NCBI GenBank assembly: GCA_001829415.1
Contig: MIBE01000010.1
Span: 69,926 to 133,925, forward strand
Direction of reading: 5' to 3'
Origin: Spirochaetes bacterium GWF1_51_8
GTDB lineage: Bacteria > Spirochaetota > Brevinematia > Brevinematales > GWF1-51-8
DNA: 64,000 nt
Part shown: piece after piece, positions 4,181 through 54,654 of the stretch
How the letters are laid out: the number at the start of each line of letters is the position of its first letter
How positions within the stretch are numbered: position 1 is the stretch's first letter
Program-made: the position numbers and the translations under genes
The notes under the pieces: generated by a model
What the model was told of the DNA's origin: nothing
The model's database searches: none
What the model saw: the letters and a program-made list of their open reading frames with translations, nothing else

Positions 4181-4391
4181 TGACAAACTCATTTTATCTT
4201 TGCGTGGCATCATGGTGAGCTTGCCTGCCTTCTCCTTCGGAGAAGGAGACAGGCCGAACCATAGCCGAAGCAATCTATTTAATTACTGGATATATCAATT
4301 AAATAGACTGCTTCTACCGCGCTTCAAAAATTTTTCGTAGCGCGGTATCGCAGTGACAAAAAATCGTGCATTTCATGACTTTGTCAACACG
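4181..4391. repeat. Palindromic mini-repeat, copy 1 (long imperfect hairpin with a nested sub-hairpin)
   Basis: Arms GAAGCAATCTATTTAATT (4267-4284) and AATTAAATAGACTGCTTC (4297-4314). Outer arms TGACAAA / TTTGTCA. Nested UUCG hairpin CCTGCCTTCTCCTTCGGAGAAGGAGACAGG at 4224-4253. Related copies at 30612-30750 and 51684-51844. Confidence 0.85.
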
Positions 4392-4561: not shown

Positions 4562-5371
4562 ATGAACGAAGGCTGGAAGAAGTACTCGGAGGCCAACCGT
4601 ACCGCGTGGAACGAAGCCGCGCCCATTCACCGGAAAACGAGGCCAGTAGACCTGAACGAGTTCTTCTCGAAACCCGGCGCGTCCCTGCTCGATCCTGTCG
4701 AGACCGGAATTCTTAAGTCGTTCGGCCTCGACGGTAAGACCGTAGCGCAGCTATGCTGTAACAACGGGCGCGATCTCATCTCGATTGTCAACATCGGGGC
4801 GAAATCCGGGACGGGCTTCGATATCTCAGACGGTTTTATCGAGGAAGCCCGTGAACTCGCGAAAACCGCCCGCGCGGATTGCGAATTCGTCCGCACCGAC
4901 ATTCTCGACATCGGACATGAATACGACAACCGTTTCGATATTGTCTATATCTCCATCGGCGCGCTCGCGTGGATGCCCGATCTCGAAGTGTTCTTCGGGA
5001 TTGCCGCCCGCATCATGAGGCCCGGCGGAAATCTTTTCATCTACGAGCACCATCCGATGACTTATCTCATTCCGTTCGAGGAATCCGGGTTTGCGCCCGA
5101 GGGGCTTGTGCTGAAGCCGGAGTATTCCTATTTTAATAAGCAGACAATTGAGGGACGGGGGCTGGACTATTTCGGCTTCACTGAGTACGGCGCGTCGAAG
5201 AACTTCGAGTTCCAGCATACGTTGGGCGAGATTGTCAATTCGGTGATCGGCGCGGGGATTGAGCTATGTGAACTCAAAGAGTATCCGCACGACATCGCTA
5301 ACGGATTCAAATGGGCGGAGGAGATGGGAAAGTTCCCGCTGAGCTATACGTTGACCGGGCGGAAGAAATAA
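4562..5371 (+). CDS. Class I SAM-dependent methyltransferase
   Basis: ORF 4436..5371 trimmed to ATG 4562, which follows AGGAG. Motif I-like VAQLCCNNGRDLI, then FDIVYISIGALAWMPD and GGNLFIYEHHP, typical of the Methyltransf_11/23 fold. Confidence 0.8.
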   Translation: MNEGWKKYSEANRTAWNEAAPIHRKTRPVDLNEFFSKPGASLLDPVETGILKSFGLDGKTVAQLCCNNGRDLISIVNIGAKSGTGFDISDGFIEEARELAKTARADCEFVRTDILDIGHEYDNRFDIVYISIGALAWMPDLEVFFGIAARIMRPGGNLFIYEHHPMTYLIPFEESGFAPEGLVLKPEYSYFNKQTIEGRGLDYFGFTEYGASKNFEFQHTLGEIVNSVIGAGIELCELKEYPHDIANGFKWAEEMGKFPLSYTLTGRKK

Positions 5372-5402
5372 GGGCGGTTCTAAAAACTGCTAACATTTAT
5401 AA

Positions 5403-5999
5403 CAGGAGAGTTCTAAAAATTCTCCACGGATGCAAAACCATCTGTTCTTTCTTTCTTCAAAACCAGAAAGAAAGAACCAAAGAAAGAGGTTCCCCGCCCG
5501 ATGCCGTTCCGAAGAAGAAGGGCGCGAAACGGGAAACGCCGAAACTCGCGTTCAACTGCCAAAAAAAAGCGTTAGAAAGTCACGCTTCGGACATCGGCGT
5601 TTCTTGCCGTTCCGCTTGGTAGAAGTCACGGCATAGCGGCGGGGTTCGAACAGCCGAAGATATAACTACATGGCAGAATTGAACTTGGCTGTTTGACCCG
5701 CGCACTTTAAAGCGCTTTAAACTACCGGAAAATCCGACCAAGGGCGCATGTCCGACACAGTCCCGTTGTCGCTCAAGAGGTCATTTCATGCGAGTTGCGC
5801 CCGTCTCGGATTTTCCTGCTGTTCTCCTGAGCTTTATCAGCGCGCCGGGTAGCTTGCCCCGCGTTCCTTGCGGGGTTCTTTGCTTACTTTCTTTCTGCCC
5901 GCTCACCGCGCCTTCCGCCGATGGCGTCGGCGGACAGGGAAAGAAAGTAAGAGTGTATTCATAGATTTTCTAAAACCCTTAAGGTTTTTAGAAGTACCC
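5403..5999 (+). repeat. About 600-nt hairpin-dense non-coding element, copy A (candidate large structured RNA or non-autonomous mobile element)
   Basis: Reverse-complement match to 54055-54654. Multiple perfect stems, for example 5444-5456/5465-5477, 5533-5542/5594-5603 and 5727-5737/5806-5816, and a long-range pairing 5492-5506/5629-5644. No ORF is conserved between the copies. Confidence 0.9.
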
Positions 6000-6036
6000 A
6001 ACATTAAGTATGATATATCTTGATAGTACGCCCAAT

Positions 6037-6081
6037 GGTCACCTCCTTGCCTGCCTTCTACGAAGGTTATTAGAAGTGACC
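6037..6081. repeat. Small palindromic unit GGTCACYTCC...GAAGTGACC carrying a half copy of the GCCTGCCTTCT module
   Basis: GGTCACCTCCTTGCCTGCCTTCTACGAAGGTTATTAGAAGTGACC. The same outer arms occur at 51616-51649. The inner GCCTGCCTTCTACGAAGG matches the sub-hairpins at 4224-4253 and 30708-30733. Confidence 0.7.
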
Positions 6082-6087
6082 ATAGAA

Positions 6088-7395
6088 CTAACGCTTCCCC
6101 CATATCTTTACCACTGTCTCTTTCCCTTTTACCTTCGTCTCGCCGAGGGGCAGGAAGCAGTCCTGGAGTTCCCGAGGCAGGCATGAATAGAGCGTGTCCG
6201 TTACGATCAGCGGGTTGGCGTAGTCTTTCGTGAGTCCCTCGATCCGCGACGCGAGATTGACCGTATCGCCGATCACGGTAAACTCCTGCCTGTCCAGACT
6301 TCCGATAGTGCCGAGGAGCGCTTCGCCGTAATGGATGCCGATTCCGTTCTCGAAAACAGGCTCGCCGAGTTTAGTCCATTCGCGGTTGAGATCGGCGAGC
6401 GCCGCGCGCATCGCTATCGCCGCCCGGACCGCGTGATCGCAGGGGTACTCGAGCGGGGTCAATCCGCCGAAGTAAGCCATTACTGCGTCGCCGATAAATT
6501 TGTCGACAACCCCGCCGTGCGCGGTGATGCACTCTACCATCCGGTTGAAGTAACGGTTCAGATGCCCGACCACCTGTGTCGGTGAACGGGATTCGCTGAA
6601 GGCGGTGAACGAACGGATGTCCGAGAAGAGCACCGCGATCCGGTGTACCTCGCCGATCGTGCCGGATTTCTCGCGAATCAGCTTCTCCTTCACTTCCTCG
6701 GAAACGAATTTCCCGAAGAGCTTGCTGATGGACTGTTTCTCGTTGAGTTCGCCGAGGATTCTATAGATGAGCGATTTGAAGTGCGAGGACAGCGCCGCGA
6801 CGAGGTAGCCTGTGAAGATCATTGTCAGCGCCTTGAACATATGGAGCGGCATCGATGTCAGGTCCTGGATGACAGTCGGGCTTGCGCCGGATAGTCTGCC
6901 GAGCTCCGATGCCGCGAGCAGGGAGCATCCCGCGTATCCGATCCCGGTGAGCCATCCTCCCAGCCTCGACAGCGTCTCGTTAAACAGGAAGCCCGTCATC
7001 ACAATCAGGAAGAAGTTTAGGTAGGAGAACGGCCCTGTGATATACGCCGCGGCCCCGCCCTCGATAAAAAAGTGGCTGAGAATAAAAAGTGTAGTCGGGA
7101 TAAGGAGATAGGGGATAAAGATGCCGTAGATCAGCCGCACCGACAGCTTACCCGATCTCGCCGCGATGAAGAGGATGAAAGAAAGTATCCCGCCCGCGAA
7201 CGCCATCAAGCCGGGGATGAATACGTCGGCGATCAATCCCCACACTGTCAGGAGGAGGATGAACGCGCCGCCGCCGAGCCCCAGTATCGCGGCGAAAATC
7301 CCGCCGTTCTGGAGCACGGTGTTGACTTCTGTCCGAATTTCCCGTTCGACGATACTCCTGTCGAAATCCTTCAAATCTTTCATTTTATCCGGCAT
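6088..7395 (-). CDS. Membrane-anchored class III adenylate/guanylate cyclase
   Basis: 435 aa. N-terminal half has about 6 TM helices. C-terminal CYCc signatures VLFSDIRSFTAFSE, KFIGDAVMAYFG and FTVIGDTVNLASRIEG. Confidence 0.88.
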   Translation of the reverse strand: MPDKMKDLKDFDRSIVEREIRTEVNTVLQNGGIFAAILGLGGGAFILLLTVWGLIADVFIPGLMAFAGGILSFILFIAARSGKLSVRLIYGIFIPYLLIPTTLFILSHFFIEGGAAAYITGPFSYLNFFLIVMTGFLFNETLSRLGGWLTGIGYAGCSLLAASELGRLSGASPTVIQDLTSMPLHMFKALTMIFTGYLVAALSSHFKSLIYRILGELNEKQSISKLFGKFVSEEVKEKLIREKSGTIGEVHRIAVLFSDIRSFTAFSESRSPTQVVGHLNRYFNRMVECITAHGGVVDKFIGDAVMAYFGGLTPLEYPCDHAVRAAIAMRAALADLNREWTKLGEPVFENGIGIHYGEALLGTIGSLDRQEFTVIGDTVNLASRIEGLTKDYANPLIVTDTLYSCLPRELQDCFLPLGETKVKGKETVVKIWGKR

Positions 7396-30548: not shown

Positions 30549-30611
30549 TGAATCAAAGGCACTTCTAAAAACTCGTAAATAATAGGGAATTATCATACAT
30601 ATGAGGAATAG

Positions 30612-30750
30612 CCTTGTCATTGCGAGTGTAGCGAAGCAATCTATTTCATTATTCGAAAATAAATTACACCGATTGCTTCTACCGCGCTTCAATAAGTTTC
30701 TGTAGCGCCTGTCTACCTTCGGTAGAAGGCAGGCGGTATCGCAATGATAA
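30612..30750. repeat. Palindromic mini-repeat, copy 2
   Basis: GTCATTGCGAG...GCGAAGCAATCTATTTCATT...GATTGCTTCTACCGCGCTTC...CGGTATCGCAATGA. Nested hairpin CCTGTCTACCTTCGGTAGAAGGCAGG at 30708-30733, here in the opposite arm compared with copy 1. Confidence 0.85.
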
Positions 30751-30810
30751 AATAATTTCTTTCTTCTTTAACAGTACTCGATCACTCACGAGTTTTAAAA
30801 CTGCTTATTA

Positions 30811-37872: not shown

Positions 37873-38040
37873 TTATTCGCCCGGCGCGTACTTTATCAGC
37901 TCCTCGATGACCGCGAGGGGTTCGGCTGCCTCGAACGAAAAGACCGGGTTGGGCAATGCGGACAGGGCGGCGGTTAGGCCTTCCGGGGTAAGCCGGATAC
38001 TTCGCCCGGGATCGCCGGGATTGAACATGAAACGTTCGAG
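37873..38040 (-). pseudogene. Detached 3'-terminal fragment of a ybaK-like gene (duplicate of 39052-39161 plus an alternative C-terminus)
   Basis: The minus-strand frame reads ...LERFMFNPGDPGRSIRLTPEGLTAALSALPNPVFSFEAAEPLAVIEELIKYAPGE*, with the stop at 37873-37875. 37931-38040 matches 39052-39161 with 4 mismatches in 110 nt. Confidence 0.8.
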
Positions 38041-39008: not shown

Positions 39009-39527
39009 TCAGTTCGATATTTTTTTAATAATTATACCGGATTCTCCGGATTCGAACGTAAAGACCGGGTTGGGCAAAACGGACAGGGCGGCGGTCAGGC
39101 CTTCCGGGGTAAGCCGGATACTTCGCCCGGGATCGCCGGGATTGAACATGAAACGTTCGAGGGTGAAAATTTCGCGGTCGATATAGATCGGAATGGTGCC
39201 GGATGTGTGGCCGAACGGCGGAACGGAACCCGGGCGGCATCCAGTGTTCGCGGAAACTTCTTCGTCGGTCGCGAAACGGATATCCTTTGTGCCGAACTCC
39301 TTTTTGAACATCCGGGCCTTGATCTGCTTTCCGGCGGTCGTCACCACGAGGTAAAACTTACCCTTCGCGTGAAAAAGGATGTTCTTGCTTCCGGCGCCTA
39401 TGGTCCAGCTTTGGAGGGCCCGTTCGCGCGCGGAGTCGTCGGTAGTGACGACCGCGGCGTGCTCTATCTCGTCATAGGGGATATCCGACTTCTTCAGGAT
39501 AGAAACGATTTTGTCATAGACCGTCAT
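39009..39527 (-). CDS. YbaK/ProX-type aminoacyl-tRNA editing domain protein
   Basis: 172 aa. KNILFHAKGKFYLVV and GCRPGSVPPFG motifs. The last 14 aa are encoded by the unique sequence between the repeat and the cassette gene. Confidence 0.8.
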   Translation of the reverse strand: MTVYDKIVSILKKSDIPYDEIEHAAVVTTDDSARERALQSWTIGAGSKNILFHAKGKFYLVVTTAGKQIKARMFKKEFGTKDIRFATDEEVSANTGCRPGSVPPFGHTSGTIPIYIDREIFTLERFMFNPGDPGRSIRLTPEGLTAALSVLPNPVFTFESGESGIIIKKISN

Positions 39528-44509: not shown

Positions 44510-44588
44510 TTACAAAAACCTTTCGTCGAAAAACCGTTTCGCTTCCTTCACCAGCCTCTCGCGCTTCCCGAACAGCACCTTCGCGGGG
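44510..44588 (-). pseudogene. Detached duplicate of the last 79 nt of the DinG-like helicase gene
   Basis: Matches 45457-45535 with 3 mismatches. The minus frame reads ...AKVLFGKRERLVKEAKRFFDERFL*, against ...FFNERFL* in the intact gene. Confidence 0.85.
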
Positions 44589-45456: not shown

Positions 45457-47937
45457 TTATAAAAACCTTTCGTTGAAAAACCGTTTCGCTTCCTTCACCA
45501 ACCTCTCGCGCTTCCCGAACAGCACCTTCGCGGGGGGGAGCGAGTTCAAAAAGTTACTGCCGTAGTTCTTCGTCTTCAAGCGGTTGTCCATGATCGCGAT
45601 CACGCCTTTGTCGGTCTTACTGCGGATCAGGCGGCCCATTCCCTGCTTGAGGCGGAGGATCGCGCGGGGCAGGCTGAAGCTGATGAACGAGTTGACACCC
45701 TTCGAGTCTAAGAGCGCGACCTTCGCGCGGTAGATCGGGTCGTCGGGATTGTCGAACGGGAGTTTCTCGATGATAACGCAGCGGAGGTTGTCGCCCCGGA
45801 TATCGATCCCCTCCCAGAAGCTCGATGTCGCGAAGAGGACGCTGTAGCCCCGGCTCTTCATCGTGTCGAGCAGGAGGTTGCGCGCGCGTTCGCCCTGACG
45901 GATCGGGAGGAGGCCGTGCTCCATCAGCTCGTTCTTCAGGAGGCCGTACATCTCGGTCAGCCGGAGGTAGGATGTGAACAGCGCGAGGACACCGCCCTGG
46001 CTCGCGAGGCAGAGGTCGCGGACAAACCCGGTCTTCTCGCCGGTCACCTTGCTGTGCTCCCCGCCGTCCTCGAGGATATAGATTTCCGCTTGTTTCCGGT
46101 AGTCGAACGGCGAGGGGAGCGAGAGTTCGAGCATCTCCTTGTTCGACGCCAAGTTCAGTCCGGTGCTCATCCGGAAATAATCGAACTTTTTATTGACCGA
46201 GAGCGTCGCCGAGGTGAAGATCGTGAAGTCCTTCTTGCCGAAGATCGAGTTCGCGAGGAAATCGCCGACCTCGAGCGGGCTGAAGGAGAAACGGATGTTC
46301 TTCGGGGTGACCTCTATCCATCGCACCTGCTCGGGCGTGGTTTCGGAGAGGAAGACCGTGTTGAAGATATCGCTCATCTCGATCAGGGTGTCGATCCGCG
46401 AACGGACGATACGGACGATGTCGGTATACGAGTTGTCGGTCGCGCTGTCGAACAACCGGTTCATGAGCGATGTCAGTTCCCCGACAAACTTATTGAGCAT
46501 GCCGAAGAGCGACTGGAGCTTGTCGCGCAGGTATGCGAAGTCTTTCGTGCCCCGGTAGACGTCGTCGATCCCGATTGTCGACGAGAACTCCGATCCCTTC
46601 CGTAAAACCTTCATAAACTCGTCGAAAAGCTCGTGCGACACACCCGCGACCGTTTTCAGCAGGTTGAGGAGCTGTTCGTAACTTTCGACCAGCTCGGGAT
46701 GCGCATGGATACCGCCCTTCCTCGCTACCAGAGTAATCAAGCCCGATTCACTGCTGTCGCGGCGCTTCTTGAAATAGAGCTTACGCAGGTGGTAAAAGAG
46801 GCTCTGGAACGAGAAGCTCCGGGAGAGCGAACGGAGCGCGGTGTCTTCTATATGGTGCGCTTCGTCGAACACGATTCCGGAGTAGAACGGCATGACGTTG
46901 CGGTAGGACTGGATATCGATCGACGAGAAGACGAGCGAATGGTTCGCGATGACGATCTGCGCCTTTTCCGCGCCGAGCCTCGCTTTATAATAGAAACACG
47001 CGCTGTAGTAACGGCACCGTTTGCGGTCGCACATCATGCTCTCGCTTCTGATCTCTTCCCATATCTCTTCCTTGACCTGCTCGGGGTACTCCCCACGGGT
47101 ACCGTTATGCCCGCTCCGCGACCAGAGCTCGATATCGTGCAGGAGCAGGCCCTCGTTCTCGCTCTCGAACAGGGAACTTTGTGTATCCTTGTCGCGCAGG
47201 AGGTCTGTGAGCCGTTTCCGGCAAAGGTAGTTTCCACGTCCGACCAATACCGCGTGATAGAGCGGTTTATTCAGGTACTTCATCACGACCCGTTCGACGA
47301 TCTGCATATCCTTTTCCGCGATCTGCTGCTGGAGATTGATCGTGTGGGTGGAGATCATCACGCGTTTTTTATTCTCTACCGCCCAAAGCGCGGCGGGGAT
47401 AAGGTACGAAAGTGATTTCCCGGTGCCCGTCCCGGCTTCACAGAGCAGTATCTTCGAGTCGTTGACAGCCCAGACAACGTGCGCGACCATATCGATCTGC
47501 TCGCCGCGCGGTTCGAAGTTCGCGATATTCTCCGAAAGGACGCCGTGGTCGCCGAACAGCCCCAGCACTTCCTCGTCCTTGAGGTAGACCCGCGAACGGG
47601 GCTGGAGGACGATATTGACCTCGGTGCATTCGTTATTGACGATATAGAAGCCGACCATCCTGTTCGCGAGAAGCGATGAGAGTTCGATATCTTCCACCGA
47701 CGGCACGGTGTTCCCCGACGGGTGATTGTGGATGACGACGTCGCCGGACAACGCTTCCATCATCGAGATGACGGTCGCGTCCTCGCTCCCGAACGACATC
47801 GGCGAGACCTCGACGGCTTTCCCGCTCCGGTCGACACTGCCGGAGAACGAGACTTCGTTGCCGCCGTTCTTGTCGATATATTCTACGATAGTCCTGATCG
47901 CGTCTTCGGAAAGGACCTGAGCTGCGTTTACTTTCAT
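45457..47937 (-). CDS. dinG: DinG/XPD-family Fe-S DNA helicase with an N-terminal RadC-like JAB/MPN domain
   Basis: 826 aa. JAMM motif HNHPSGNTVPSVED (47689-47730). Walker A AGTGTGKS, DEAH box VFDEAHH, four Cys of an XPD-type cluster (LCRK, MMCD, RCRYY, SACFY), and a C-terminal helicase_C_2-like region. Confidence 0.85.
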   Translation of the reverse strand: MKVNAAQVLSEDAIRTIVEYIDKNGGNEVSFSGSVDRSGKAVEVSPMSFGSEDATVISMMEALSGDVVIHNHPSGNTVPSVEDIELSSLLANRMVGFYIVNNECTEVNIVLQPRSRVYLKDEEVLGLFGDHGVLSENIANFEPRGEQIDMVAHVVWAVNDSKILLCEAGTGTGKSLSYLIPAALWAVENKKRVMISTHTINLQQQIAEKDMQIVERVVMKYLNKPLYHAVLVGRGNYLCRKRLTDLLRDKDTQSSLFESENEGLLLHDIELWSRSGHNGTRGEYPEQVKEEIWEEIRSESMMCDRKRCRYYSACFYYKARLGAEKAQIVIANHSLVFSSIDIQSYRNVMPFYSGIVFDEAHHIEDTALRSLSRSFSFQSLFYHLRKLYFKKRRDSSESGLITLVARKGGIHAHPELVESYEQLLNLLKTVAGVSHELFDEFMKVLRKGSEFSSTIGIDDVYRGTKDFAYLRDKLQSLFGMLNKFVGELTSLMNRLFDSATDNSYTDIVRIVRSRIDTLIEMSDIFNTVFLSETTPEQVRWIEVTPKNIRFSFSPLEVGDFLANSIFGKKDFTIFTSATLSVNKKFDYFRMSTGLNLASNKEMLELSLPSPFDYRKQAEIYILEDGGEHSKVTGEKTGFVRDLCLASQGGVLALFTSYLRLTEMYGLLKNELMEHGLLPIRQGERARNLLLDTMKSRGYSVLFATSSFWEGIDIRGDNLRCVIIEKLPFDNPDDPIYRAKVALLDSKGVNSFISFSLPRAILRLKQGMGRLIRSKTDKGVIAIMDNRLKTKNYGSNFLNSLPPAKVLFGKRERLVKEAKRFFNERFL

Positions 47938-51379: not shown

Positions 51380-51615
51380 ATTCCTCTCCCGATTATTATG
51401 AGATATATTGTATTTCAAAACCCCTTTTTTATCAATTACTGGCAGATAATATTATGAAGCGAATTATTTTCGCGGATTTCTGGTATAAATCCGGTTCCGG
51501 TTCTATAATATATCCGGTTCGAAGGGGATCTTCATTTAAAAATCAAAAATCAGGGCGGTTCTGAGAACCTTGCCTCTTCCGCGGTCAATGAAAAACTCTT
51601 ATTAAGACGCCCGAA

Positions 51616-51649
51616 GGTCACTTCCTTTAATTTGTAGTTAAAAGTGACC
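51616..51649. repeat. Small palindromic unit GGTCACTTCC...AAGTGACC
   Basis: GGTCACTTCCTTTAATTTGTAGTTAAAAGTGACC. The same outer arms occur at 6037-6081. Confidence 0.7.
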
Positions 51650-51683
51650 GCAAATCAATAACGCCGGGTATCATAGGGGTTTG

Positions 51684-51844
51684 TTGACAAACTTGTCTTG
51701 TCATTGCAAGGCGTCATGGGGAGCTTGCCGAAACATAGCCGAAGCAATCTATGTTATTAACTGATTAATAATTACATAGACTGCTTCACCGCTTCGCGTT
51801 TCGCAGTGACAAGAAATCTATTTAATACCGGCTTCGTCAACACG
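51684..51844. repeat. Palindromic mini-repeat, copy 3 (no nested sub-hairpin)
   Basis: TTGACAAAC...GTCATTGCAAG...GAGCTTGCCGAAACATAGCCGAAGCAATCTATG...CATAGACTGCTTCACCGC...GCAGTGACAAG...CGTCAACACG. Collinear with copy 1 apart from the missing 30-nt module. Confidence 0.85.
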
Positions 51845-54054: not shown

Positions 54055-54654
54055 GGGTAGTTATAAAAACCTTAAGGATTTTAGAAAACTATAAATATAC
54101 TCTTACTTTCTTTCTGAGCGGGCACCGCGCCTTCCGCCAGCCTTCCATCTCAGAAGGAAAGTGAACAGGACGATGGCGTCGGCGGACAGGGAAAGAAAGT
54201 AACAAAGAACCCCGCAAGGAACGCGGGGCAAGCTATCCGCCGCGCTGATAAAGCTCAGGGGAAGAGCCGGAAAATCCGGAAAAGGCATAACTCCTCCCTT
54301 CGGTCGTCGAACAAATGCCTTTTCTTCGGATTTCCCGGGAGTTTGAAGCGCTTTAAAGTGCGCGGACAAAACAGCCAACTTCAGTCACCTATTCATGTCT
54401 TCGGCTGTTCGAACCCCGCCGCTATGCCGTGACTTCTACCAAGCGGAACGGCCAGAAACGCCGATGTCCGAAGCGTGACTTTATATCGCTTCTTTTGGCG
54501 GCCGACCGCGAGTTTCGGCGTTTCCCGTTTCGCGCCCCTCTTCTTTGGAACGGCATCGGGCGGGGAACCTCTTTCTTTCGTTCTTTCTTTCTGGGTTTGC
54601 AGAAAGAAAGAACAGTGGGTTTTACATCCTTGGAGATTTTTTTGAACTCTCCTG
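54055..54654 (-). repeat. About 600-nt hairpin-dense non-coding element, copy B (reverse orientation relative to copy A)
   Basis: The reverse complement aligns end to end with 5403-5999. It carries a 33-nt insertion (54139-54171) and an oppositely oriented IR-flanked segment (54103-54203). Confidence 0.9.

What the first reader, a model, noticed from the sequence alone, without database searches (positions are those of the whole stretch)
54103..54203. An inverted-repeat-flanked segment inside the 600-nt element lies in opposite orientation in the two copies (possible invertible switch)
Near the 3' end of the element, a 13-bp perfect inverted repeat CTTACTTTCTTTC / GAAAGAAAGTAA(G/C) brackets an internal segment (copy A 5884-5951; copy B 54103-54203). 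The rest of copy B is the reverse complement of copy A. This internal segment, however, reads the same way on the window + strand in both copies: CTG..CACCGCGCCTTCCGCC...GATGGCGTCGGCGGACAGGG. Relative to the element body it is therefore flipped. The segment is not self-palindromic: 19 nt lie on one side of the CCGCCGA-TGGCG-TCGGCGG core hairpin and 6 nt on the other, so the orientation difference is real. Copy B also carries a 33-nt insertion (54139-54171). That insertion contains a third copy of the repeat arm, CTCAGAAGGAAAGT (54149-54162), complementary to 54105-54118 with one mismatch, which gives alternative pairing or recombination partners. An 8-nt block next to the left arm is itself exactly reverse-complemented between the copies (GCCCGCTC at 5897-5904 versus GAGCGGGC at 54116-54123). 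The segment sits just downstream of the terminator-like hairpin of the element. IR-bounded segments found in both orientations are the hallmark of site-specific DNA inversion. Alternatives are template-switch inversion at a quasi-palindrome, or independent insertion of a small palindromic unit in either orientation. No recombinase gene is present in this window.
Basis: seen in the sequence. Interest (0 to 1): 0.7.

Follow-up and report, generated by a model that had tools for sequence, protein, structure and literature searches.

The report
Mirror-image hairpin cassette, not a switch
The "flipped" segment is real, but it is a small GC-rich hairpin cassette sitting on one side or the mirror-image other side of a palindromic hairpin in a multi-copy non-coding repeat, and nothing suggests it works as a reversible DNA switch.

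Summary
The two ~600-nt copies (5405-5999 on +, 54055-54654 on -) are reverse complements. The arm-bounded segment (5883-5951 / 54102-54202) reads the same way on the + strand in both.

It is not a simple inversion. A 10-nt block, Y (TGCCCGCTCA), keeps its orientation relative to the element and only changes sides.

I recovered at least 16 copies of the element from the same groundwater spirochaete MAG. They carry five alleles of this hairpin (H3):
- an empty form, arm-Y-arm, a 15-bp stem with a 6-nt loop (5 copies);
- X 3' of Y (copy A type, 6 copies);
- reverse-complemented X 5' of Y (1 copy);
- the same with a nested second cassette (copy B type, 3 copies);
- a different cassette at that site (1 copy).

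X belongs to a genome-wide family of CCTTC...GACAGG mini-hairpins. These also come and go in an unrelated repeat family. Each locus shows one fixed state wherever a second assembly or sample was available. The nested cassette occurs only in one orientation. The window has no recombinase gene.

Best reading: the palindromic target is occupied on either strand by a small insertion-prone cassette. A programmed invertible switch is not supported. Read-level data were not available.

The parts
5405..5999 (+). Element copy A: ~595-nt structured non-coding dispersed repeat
   Evidence: Inverted-repeat match to copy B. nhmmer hit to the family profile, E 1e-205. Strong fold, z -6.6. Its flanks 5367-5404 and 6000-6083 are contiguous in a paralogous site of the sister genome, L009:1629-1746, with AACA duplicated.
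5444..5477 (+). H5: 5' subterminal hairpin GTTCTTTCTTTCT / AGAAAGAAAGAAC. Its arm motif matches H3.
   Evidence: 13-nt perfect inverted repeat (I3). Conserved in all copies. It carries a cassette (W) in L021, L039 and L040.
5856..5876 (+). T: GC-rich terminator-like hairpin, followed by TCTTTG and the T-rich left arm of H3
   Evidence: Terminator-like consensus match. It is an optional module, absent in L021, L039, L040, L043 and L044. The following UUCUUU is predicted to pair with AAAGAA at 5479-5484.
5883..5895 (+). H3 left arm L (CTTACTTTCTTTC), copy A
   Evidence: I4; invariant across copies.
5896..5905 (+). Y (TGCCCGCTCA): TG..CA closes the stem and CCCGCT is the loop of the basal hairpin. 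In copy A it lies 5' of X.
   Evidence: It is the whole interior of the hairpin in the empty alleles L039, L040 and L044.
5906..5938 (+). X: 33-nt GC-rich hairpin cassette (CCGCG + CCTTCCGCCGA-TGGCG-TCGGCGGACAGG), form 1 position (3' of Y)
   Evidence: Identical in winA, L021, L029/L037, L035 and L036 although their bodies are 65-90% identical. Matches the cassette-family pattern GCCTTC..GACAGG.
5939..5951 (+). H3 right arm R (GAAAGAAAGTAAG), copy A
   Evidence: I4.
5952..5999 (+). Tail of copy A, with terminal hairpin 5968-5993 and end ..TTAGAAGTACCC
   Evidence: I6. Aligned in all copies and in the same orientation relative to the body in both forms.
54055..54654 (-). Element copy B. It lies between the DUF2225 gene and pgi and is absent from that intergenic region in the sister genome.
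   Evidence: E 8e-196. The sister genome GWF1_49_6 has only ~98 bp between the DUF2225 gene and pgi.
54102..54114 (-). H3 right arm R of copy B (reads CTTACTTTCTTTC on the + strand)
54115..54124 (-). Y of copy B: TGCCCGCTCA on the element (-) strand, now 3' of the cassette
54125..54138 (-). X' (reverse-complemented X on the element strand), 3' part, form 2 position (5' of Y)
54139..54171 (-). Z: 33-nt second cassette nested inside X'. It has the same type of termini (CCTGT..AAGGC) and contains an inverted copy of the Y-end plus R-arm junction.
   Evidence: I7, 81. Homologous Z in L023 (32 nt) and L022/L027 (62 nt). A Z-type core replaces the X core in L038.
54172..54190 (-). X', 5' part
54191..54202 (-). 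H3 left arm L of copy B (TTACTTTCTTTC, 12 nt; one C is missing)
   Evidence: I8.
54209..54229 (-). T hairpin of copy B
54580..54613 (-). H5 of copy B
   Evidence: I5.
4227..4253 (+). K cassette (GCCTTCTCCTTCGGAGAAGGAGACAGG) of the same mini-hairpin family, inserted in an unrelated repeat (R2)
   Evidence: Absent from the R2 copy at 51683-51810.
30708..30730 (-). K cassette of the same family in another R2 copy, at a different site and in the opposite orientation
   Evidence: Absent from the R2 copy at 4181-4365.

Best explanation
The segment is the interior of H3, a conserved subterminal hairpin of a ~600-nt structured, non-coding dispersed repeat. The repeat has at least 16 copies in this uncultivated spirochaete MAG.

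Shown:
- The basal hairpin is a perfect 15-bp A/T-rich stem (CTTACTTTCTTTC-TG ... CA-GAAAGAAAGTAAG) with a 6-nt loop (CCCGCT).
- A 33-nt GC-rich mini-hairpin cassette, X, is present in some copies. It lies between the 13-nt arm and the TG/CA pair. X belongs to a genome-wide family with termini CCTTC...GACAGG.
- Because the host stem is a palindrome, the same insertion site (CTTTC|TG) exists on both strands. In copy A, X occupies it on the antisense strand (arm-Y-X-arm). In copy B it occupies it on the sense strand (arm-X'-Y-arm), and a second cassette Z is nested inside.
- The loop Y never flips.

The apparent inversion is therefore mirror-image occupancy of a palindromic target, not recombination between the arms.

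Inferred:
- The states are heritable alleles fixed at each locus.
- They have been spread and reshuffled among copies by element propagation and recombination or gene conversion.
- How the cassette gets in is not shown. It could be strand-specific insertion of a small mobile hairpin (in the manner of REP elements or mitochondrial GC clusters). It could also be replication or repair template switching on the quasi-palindrome, using another copy as donor.
For: Anatomy of the two forms:
- In element orientation, form 1 is L|TGCCCGCTCA|X|R and form 2 is L|X'|TGCCCGCTCA|R. The exact reverse complement of form 1 would carry TGAGCGGGCA instead.
- The junction CTTTC|CCTGTCC and the following TG are identical on the respective strands.

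Empty allele:
- The empty form L-TGCCCGCTCA-R was predicted from this model, before it was seen.
- It then appeared in translations (..SLLTFFLPAQKESK..).
- It was confirmed in DNA in L039, L040/L041/L042 and L044. L043 is also empty but with a variant loop.

Other alleles:
- L034 has X' without Z. L038 has a different cassette with the same termini at the same site.
- All alleles fold as stable hairpins, -13.6 to -25.8 kcal/mol as DNA, z -4.6 to -6.6.

Cassette family:
- GCCTTC-N(6-30)-GACAGG occurs 3 times in the window against 0.17 expected, and 0 of 100 shuffles reached 3.
- Members occur in H5, in element bodies and in other intergenic sites.
- They show precise presence/absence in the unrelated R2 repeat, in either orientation.

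Relation to the element bodies:
- X is 33/33 identical between copies whose bodies are 65-90% identical.
- Form does not track body similarity: same-form pairs average 79.5% identity and different-form pairs 82.8%.

Stability:
- Each locus seen more than once shows one state.
- The end of the Logan contig L008 at 54129 is what a k=31 graph gives where sequence becomes shared with other form-2 copies. This is my inference.
Against: - No solo X was found outside H3 in about 270 kb of held sequence. X itself is not shown to be independently mobile.
- No target-site duplication or common target motif was seen for the cassettes.
- Cassette W in H5 sits at the L|TG junction in the opposite orientation to X'. 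A strict rule of one site and one orientation does not hold across cassettes.
- No transposase or HUH enzyme could be looked for in the rest of the genome.
- Nine copies were found with a pattern that requires the X-R junction, so allele frequencies are biased.
- All data are short-read metagenome assemblies. Some of the apparent module reshuffling could be chimeric assembly across conserved blocks.
- Minor-orientation reads at a locus cannot be excluded.
Confidence: 0.65

Rival explanations
1. Programmed phase-variable switch. A site-specific recombinase inverts the DNA between the 13-bp arms and toggles some function of the element.
For: A perfect inverted repeat brackets the segment. Both arrangements exist in several copies and do not follow body phylogeny. 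A third arm-like copy lies in Z (I7).
Against: - Y is never inverted, 0 of 11 cassette-bearing copies.
- Empty alleles exist.
- Z occurs only in form 2 and has diverged there.
- Each locus has the same state in every assembly or sample available.
- Only 43 bp separate the arms, short for a recombinase synapse. This rests on general knowledge and was not tested here.
- No recombinase domain was found among 50 window ORFs scanned; 4 of the other 5 carry non-recombinase Pfam labels.
- No promoter or coding payload lies in the segment.
Confidence: 0.04
2. A rare spontaneous rearrangement within an X-bearing hairpin. One route is inversion between the arms followed by re-inversion of the TG..CA-flanked block Y. 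Another is a fold-back template switch that makes arm-X'-Y-X-arm, followed by loss of one X. The new allele then spread by gene conversion. Empty alleles would be secondary precise losses.
For: - X and X' are exactly identical, and the GG/CC bulge and the loop TGGCG/CGCCA are exact complements.
- Z contains an inverted partial copy of the Y-R junction, a footprint typical of template switching (I7).
- Template switching is known to invert hairpin loops and to copy bulges across stems (PMC8794818).
Against: - It needs at least two precise events. By my own working through the four-point template-switch model of PMC8794818, a single switch on form 1 gives L-X'-Y-X-R, not form 2.
- No intermediate carrying both X' and X, or carrying Y', was seen among 16 copies.
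- Precise loss of X with no flanking microhomology would have to recur in several body clades.
Confidence: 0.2
3. Assembly artefact: a short-read assembler mis-joined a palindromic repeat.
For: The element is a multi-copy repeat with identical blocks of 54 nt or more. Several contigs break inside it.
Against: - Form-specific junctions are novel sequences that require real reads.
- Each form recurs on several contigs with unique flanks.
- ENA, JGI, NCBI and Logan assemblies agree at copies A and B.
- The arms (13 nt) are shorter than any assembler k-mer.
Confidence: 0.03

Closest known systems
Invertible DNA switches (invertons: Hin/Gin, FimB/E-type invertible promoters)
   Same: A short inverted repeat brackets a segment that is seen in two orientations relative to its surroundings.
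   Different: The whole bracketed segment is not inverted, because Y keeps its sense. The segment can be absent. No payload, no nearby recombinase, 43 bp between the arms, and one state per locus.
Hairpin-associated small inversions and template-switch mutations (chloroplast stem-loop inversions; rRNA/miRNA loop inversions, PMC8794818)
   Same: The rearrangement is confined to the inside of a perfect stem. Inverted partial copies such as Z, and bulges that change strand, resemble template-switch footprints.
   Different: A loop inversion keeps length and gives an exact reverse complement. Here the true loop never flips, and a 33-nt module changes side. One template-switch event does not produce the observed form.
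Small mobile GC-rich hairpin elements (yeast mitochondrial GC clusters such as GC42, PMC4478555; sponge and fungal repetitive or double-hairpin elements cited there)
   Same: Cassettes of 25-35 nt that are GC-rich and hairpin-forming. They show precise presence/absence between homologous sites, conserved termini with variable cores, and nesting or merging of cassettes.
   Different: This is a bacterial chromosome. No target-site duplication or target motif was seen. Few members are known so far. Mobility is inferred only from presence/absence.
Modular dispersed intergenic repeats of bacteria (BOX, Correia/NEMIS, REP/BIME, RPE; MITE-like elements)
   Same: The host ~600-nt element is multi-copy, intergenic and non-coding. 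It is polymorphic for insertion and built of modules that are present or absent in different combinations.
   Different: It is much longer and more highly structured than those repeats. It has invariant G.U pairs on one strand that suggest a folded RNA or single strand. Terminal inverted repeats and target-site duplication are unclear. No sequence relative was found in Rfam, plasmids or phages.
IS200/IS605-type elements and their ORF-less derivatives (PATEs), and insertion sequences that target REP hairpin loops (e.g. IS1397); recalled from memory as a lead only
   Same: Two similar subterminal hairpins (H5 and H3) in direct orientation. Hairpin DNA serves as the site of insertion. Insertion next to a fixed sequence on either strand would explain the mirror images.
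   Different: No TnpA or HUH gene was seen or searchable. The distances from hairpin to element end are longer than in typical members. Cassette W breaks a strict orientation rule.

Membership tests
Inverton / site-specific invertible switch | Inverted repeats flank the segment | tested here: met
   13-nt perfect arms in A and 12-nt in B (I4, I8).
Inverton / site-specific invertible switch | Everything between the repeats is reverse-complemented between the two states | tested here: not met
   The 10-nt block TGCCCGCTCA keeps element sense in all 11 cassette-bearing copies and only changes side.
Inverton / site-specific invertible switch | Both orientations coexist at one locus in a population | tested here: inconclusive
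   A single state was seen at copy A, copy B, L029/L037, L022/L027 and L040/41/42 across JGI, ENA, NCBI and Logan assemblies and two BioSamples. Consensus assemblies cannot show minor variants, and no reads were available.
Inverton / site-specific invertible switch | Cognate serine or tyrosine recombinase | tested here: not met
   No recombinase, integrase or transposase Pfam domain in 50 of 55 window ORFs at E<=1e-5. The genes next to 9 other copies are not recombinases as far as I could judge from ORF sizes and the first 60 residues of each product, without a domain scan. A trans-acting enzyme elsewhere in the genome could not be tested.
Hairpin loop inversion by template switching | The inverted stretch is the loop or spacer of a stem, its length is kept, and it is an exact reverse complement | tested here: not met
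   The loop CCCGCT is not inverted in any of 16 copies, and a 33-nt side module moves instead. Z does carry an inverted partial copy of the neighbouring sequence (I7).
Small mobile GC-rich hairpin cassette (GC-cluster-like) | Precise presence/absence at homologous sites | tested here: met
   H3 is empty in some copies and X-, Z- or F3-bearing in others. R2 copies occur with and without K cassettes. Element-body inserts are present in L029/L037 and absent in winA.
Small mobile GC-rich hairpin cassette (GC-cluster-like) | Family of copies with shared termini at unrelated sites | tested here: met
   CCTTC..(G/A)ACAGG members were found in at least 6 kinds of context, with enrichment of 3 against 0.17 expected in the window.
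Small mobile GC-rich hairpin cassette (GC-cluster-like) | Target-site motif or duplication; demonstrated transposition | tested here: not met
   No duplication or common flanking motif at the cassette borders. X was found only in H3. Transposition itself cannot be tested here.
MITE-like / dispersed intergenic repeat (host element) | Multi-copy, non-coding, insertion-polymorphic | tested here: met
   At least 16 copies. Absent between the DUF2225 gene and pgi in the sister genome. A paralogous empty site exists for copy A. Only spurious ORFs are present.
MITE-like / dispersed intergenic repeat (host element) | Terminal inverted repeats and a target-site duplication of fixed length | tested here: inconclusive
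   AACA is duplicated at copy A, and ATCA/GTCA at copy B. The termini GGAGAGTTCTAAAAA and GGGTACTTCTAAAAA match at 11-12 of 15 positions by my reading.
Any Rfam RNA family | Covariance-model match | tested here: not met
   No hit at the gathering threshold in the window. Only chance-level hits with E>3 in 5300-6100.
IS200/IS605-derived ORF-less element (PATE) | Y1 HUH transposase in the genome; cleavage next to subterminal hairpins | not testable with these tools
The only supporting feature seen is the architecture, with H5 and H3 as similar direct subterminal hairpins.

The most novel reading that the evidence does not exclude
X, Z, W and K form a previously undescribed family of ~25-35-nt mobile GC-rich hairpin cassettes in a bacterial chromosome. 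They would be a bacterial counterpart of mitochondrial GC clusters. They insert strand-specifically into single-stranded hairpin DNA, perhaps through a HUH/RAYT-type enzyme. On this reading, the side of Y on which X sits records which DNA strand was targeted. The host ~600-nt element would be a new large structured RNA or mobile element that these cassettes remodel.
Probability: 0.2. Interest if true: 0.6.

Novelty: new member of a known kind. Interest (0 to 1): 0.3.

Why it matters
As an invertible switch it does not hold up, so no new phase-variation system is being claimed. Two things remain. First, inverted-repeat-flanked segments that differ in orientation between repeat copies can arise from mirror-image occupancy of a palindromic target. 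An internal block that keeps its sense, and the existence of empty alleles, distinguish this from true inversion, which is useful when screening for invertons. Second, this uncultivated groundwater spirochaete carries an undescribed, highly structured ~600-nt repeat family that is being remodelled by tiny GC-rich hairpin cassettes. That is modestly interesting for how structured non-coding elements gain and lose helices.

Tried and rejected
- Rfam at the gathering and E-value thresholds gave nothing meaningful.
- The genome-contig scan with a 20-mer from the most conserved block gave 5 hits, all chance matches in high-GC genomes.
- Two viral-contig scans gave no hits. BLASTN of the element against plasmids and phages gave none.
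- I asked whether the absolute orientation of X follows the replication strand. GC skew is too weak and the loci too short: 3 agree and 6 disagree, so the test is uninformative.
- I asked whether H3 form correlates with the direction of the neighbouring genes. It does not (ORF maps).
- I asked whether form correlates with body phylogeny. It does not.
- I tried to derive form 2 from form 1 by a single template switch. It gives L-X'-Y-X-R instead, so it is rejected as a one-step route.
- I considered the end of Logan contig L008 inside the segment as a sign of heterogeneity. It is explained by k=31 and sequence shared with other form-2 copies.
- I considered L021:2400-2560 as a second, diverged element on the other strand. 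It is the 5' part of the same minus-strand copy, with a cassette in H5.
- The look-up of P0049, an empty allele in the NCBI MAG, failed, so that copy rests on its translation only.
- MAFFT aligned Z with the Y-X part of form 1. I judged this weaker than the match of the Z termini to the X' termini.

Full report
**1. Observation**

The window holds two copies of a ~600-nt element: copy A at 5405-5999 on the + strand and copy B at 54055-54654 on the - strand. Their bodies match as inverted repeats at 78-91% (I1-I5). Within them, 5883-5919 matches 54102-54138 and 5919-5950 matches 54171-54202 as direct repeats (89% and 100%; D7, D8). The segment bracketed by CTTACTTTCTTTC / GAAAGAAAGTAAG therefore lies the other way round relative to the body.

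**2. Source organism and nature of the element**

The DUF2225 protein next to copy B is 100% identical to a protein of the MAG "Spirochaetes bacterium GWF1_51_8", from Rifle groundwater. More distant homologues are labelled Brevinematia.

In the sister genome GWF1_49_6 the DUF2225 gene and pgi are about 98 bp apart, so copy B is absent there. The two flanks of copy A are contiguous in a paralogous site of that genome, L009:1629-1746, and 4 nt (AACA) are duplicated in the window. The element is therefore an insertion-polymorphic repeat.

It has no Rfam match and no relatives in plasmids or phages. It folds far better than shuffled sequence, with z of -6.6 and -8.0. An alignment of nine copies gives a consensus structure with compensatory changes. 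It also has several invariant G.U pairs that would be A.C mismatches on the other strand. The sense strand, as RNA or single-stranded DNA, is therefore the folded one.

The architecture, 5' to 3', is:
- a leader hairpin;
- H5 (GTTCTTTCTTTC-TGCAAACCCA-GAAAGAAAGAAC);
- the core;
- T, an optional terminator-like hairpin;
- H3, the hairpin of this finding;
- a tail hairpin.

**3. More copies**

One metagenome scan with the X-arm junction found nine further loci. Two of them are the same copy, and none is copy A or B. Searches with translations of spurious ORFs, which do not depend on H3, added more. In total there are at least 16 copies. All come from the same sample set or MAG, and one rests on its translation only.

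**4. What the segment really is**

In element orientation the copies found by the scan fall into two discrete forms.
- Form 1: L | TGCCCGCTCA | X | R. Found in copy A, L021, L026, L029/L037, L035 and L036.
- Form 2: L | X' | TGCCCGCTCA | R. Found in L034, and with a nested insert Z in copy B, L022/L027 and L023.

X' is the exact reverse complement of the 33-nt X. The 10-nt block Y (TGCCCGCTCA) is not inverted. It keeps its sense and only changes side. A recombination between the arms would give TGAGCGGGCA, and that is never seen.

This suggested a simple ancestral hairpin, L-Y-R, shaped like H5 with TG..CA closing a 6-nt loop (note). That predicted empty allele was then found. It appeared first as the translation ..SLLTFFLPAQKESK... 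It was then confirmed as DNA (CTTACTTTCTTTC-TGCCCGCTCA-GAAAGAAAGTAAG) in L039, L040/41/42 and L044. L043 is also empty, with a variant loop.

L038 carries a different cassette with the same termini at the form-2 site. All alleles fold as stable hairpins.

X is thus an optional cassette lying between the 13-nt arm and the TG/CA pair. The stem is a palindrome, so the site CTTTC|TG exists on both strands. The two forms are the two mirror-image occupancies of that site.

**5. X belongs to a wider cassette family**

The pattern GCCTTC-N(6-30)-GACAGG occurs 3 times in the window against 0.17 expected. Members with CCTTC...(G/A)ACAGG termini include:
- X, Z and the L038 core;
- W, in H5 of L021, L039 and L040;
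- inserts in element bodies;
- cassettes in another repeat family, R2.

In R2 one copy has a 30-nt cassette that another copy lacks. A third copy has a 26-nt cassette at a different site and in the opposite orientation. Gain or loss of such mini-hairpins at precise borders is therefore a general process in this genome.

**6. Is it a switch?**

The evidence is against it.
- Y is never flipped, and empty alleles exist.
- Z occurs only in form-2 copies, where it has diverged and acquired a further insert. That state is therefore old and stable.
- Every locus seen in more than one assembly or sample shows one state:
  - copy A in JGI;
  - copy B in ENA, JGI and Logan;
  - L029 = L037;
  - L022 = L027;
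  - L040 = L041 = L042, from two BioSamples.
- The Logan contig that ends inside the segment at 54129 ends where a k=31 graph first meets sequence shared with other form-2 copies. It needs no heterogeneity.
- No recombinase or transposase domain was found among 50 window ORFs scanned. Of the 5 not scanned, 4 (FtsK, DUF2225, PGI and the TPR protein) carry non-recombinase Pfam labels in the gene tables. The genes next to other copies did not look like recombinases or transposases from ORF sizes and N-terminal sequence alone.
- The arms are only 43 bp apart, and the segment holds no promoter-like or coding payload.

Read-level data were not available, so rare variants cannot be excluded.

**7. 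How the alleles spread**

H3 form does not follow body similarity. Same-form pairs average 79.5% identity and different-form pairs 82.8%. Both the alpha and beta body types carry both forms. X is identical between copies whose bodies differ by 10-35%.

The other modules (T, a 44-nt hairpin, the central hairpin variants, W) also reassort. This points to recombination or gene conversion among copies, or to repeated cassette insertion. Some chimeric short-read assembly cannot be ruled out.

**8. Mechanism (inferred)**

There are two candidate routes.
- **Strand-specific insertion of a small mobile hairpin into the palindromic target.** This explains the identical junctions on either strand. W in H5 has the opposite orientation at the same kind of site, however, and no enzyme, target-site duplication or solo X was found.
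- **Template switching during replication or repair.** Z contains an inverted copy of the Y-R junction (I7), and such events are documented in hairpins (PMC8794818). A single switch on form 1 would give L-X'-Y-X-R, not form 2. Either an empty recipient with another copy as donor, or a second event, is required.

**9. Verdict**

The sequence observation is real. The invertible-switch interpretation is not supported.

The case is a new example of known kinds of things: modular dispersed repeats and small GC-rich hairpin insertions. The closest analogue for the cassettes is the mitochondrial GC clusters (PMC4478555). It is of modest interest, mainly as a caution for inverton screens and as a pointer to an undescribed structured repeat family.

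Noticed in passing
window 4181-4365, ~30600-30760, 51683-51810: A second repeat family (R2), about 150 nt long, with a TTGACA-containing leader and two hairpins. It lies upstream of genes and has no Rfam hit. Its copies differ by precise presence or absence of GC-rich mini-hairpin cassettes (4227-4253 on +; 30708-30730 on -).
   Followed up: partly
window 5367-5404 + 6000-6083; 51553-51650; L009:1629-1790; L040:1050-1110 and 1640-1690: Small units made of GGGCGGTTCTAAAAAC plus a GGTCAC...GTGACC hairpin are the sites into which the 600-nt element is inserted, in either orientation (copy A and L040). The hairpin resembles the element's own tail (..TTAGAAGTACCC). It may be a REP-like target family.
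   Followed up: partly
window 5463-5485 against 5876-5897 (copy A); 54191-54209 against 54573-54591 (copy B): The 3' arm of H5 plus its linker is about 20 nt complementary to the T-tail plus the 5' arm of H3. An alternative long helix could therefore enclose the whole core instead of forming H5 and H3. The four arm copies form a cruciform-like set.
   Followed up: partly
alignment A2 of nine element copies (window 5405-5999 and relatives): Invariant G.U pairs and a few compensatory pairs support a sense-strand fold of the ~400-nt core. The element may be an undescribed large structured RNA. Its function and expression are unknown.
   Followed up: partly
L021:1932-2547, L039:1291-1847, L040:1112-1622: A subfamily of the element lacks the terminator-like hairpin T and has a 28-nt cassette (CCCCTATGGCATGCCTTCGGGGACAGGC) in H5. 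Presence of T and presence of an H3 cassette go together: 10 of 10 copies with T carry one, against 1 of 6 copies without T.
   Followed up: partly
L036:318-4633: One element copy sits between two tandem paralogous genes (584 and 602 aa). Their upstream regions repeat about 40 nt, including a tail-like hairpin half.
   Followed up: no
window 37918-38040 / 39039-39161 and 44510-44588 / 45457-45535: Two further direct repeat pairs (123 nt at 92%; 79 nt at 96%) of unknown nature.
   Followed up: no
window 5987-6014 (+): The only sigma-70-like promoter match near copy A spans the element's tail (TTTAGA) and the flank (TATGAT) and reads outward. It is not conserved at copy B.
   Followed up: no
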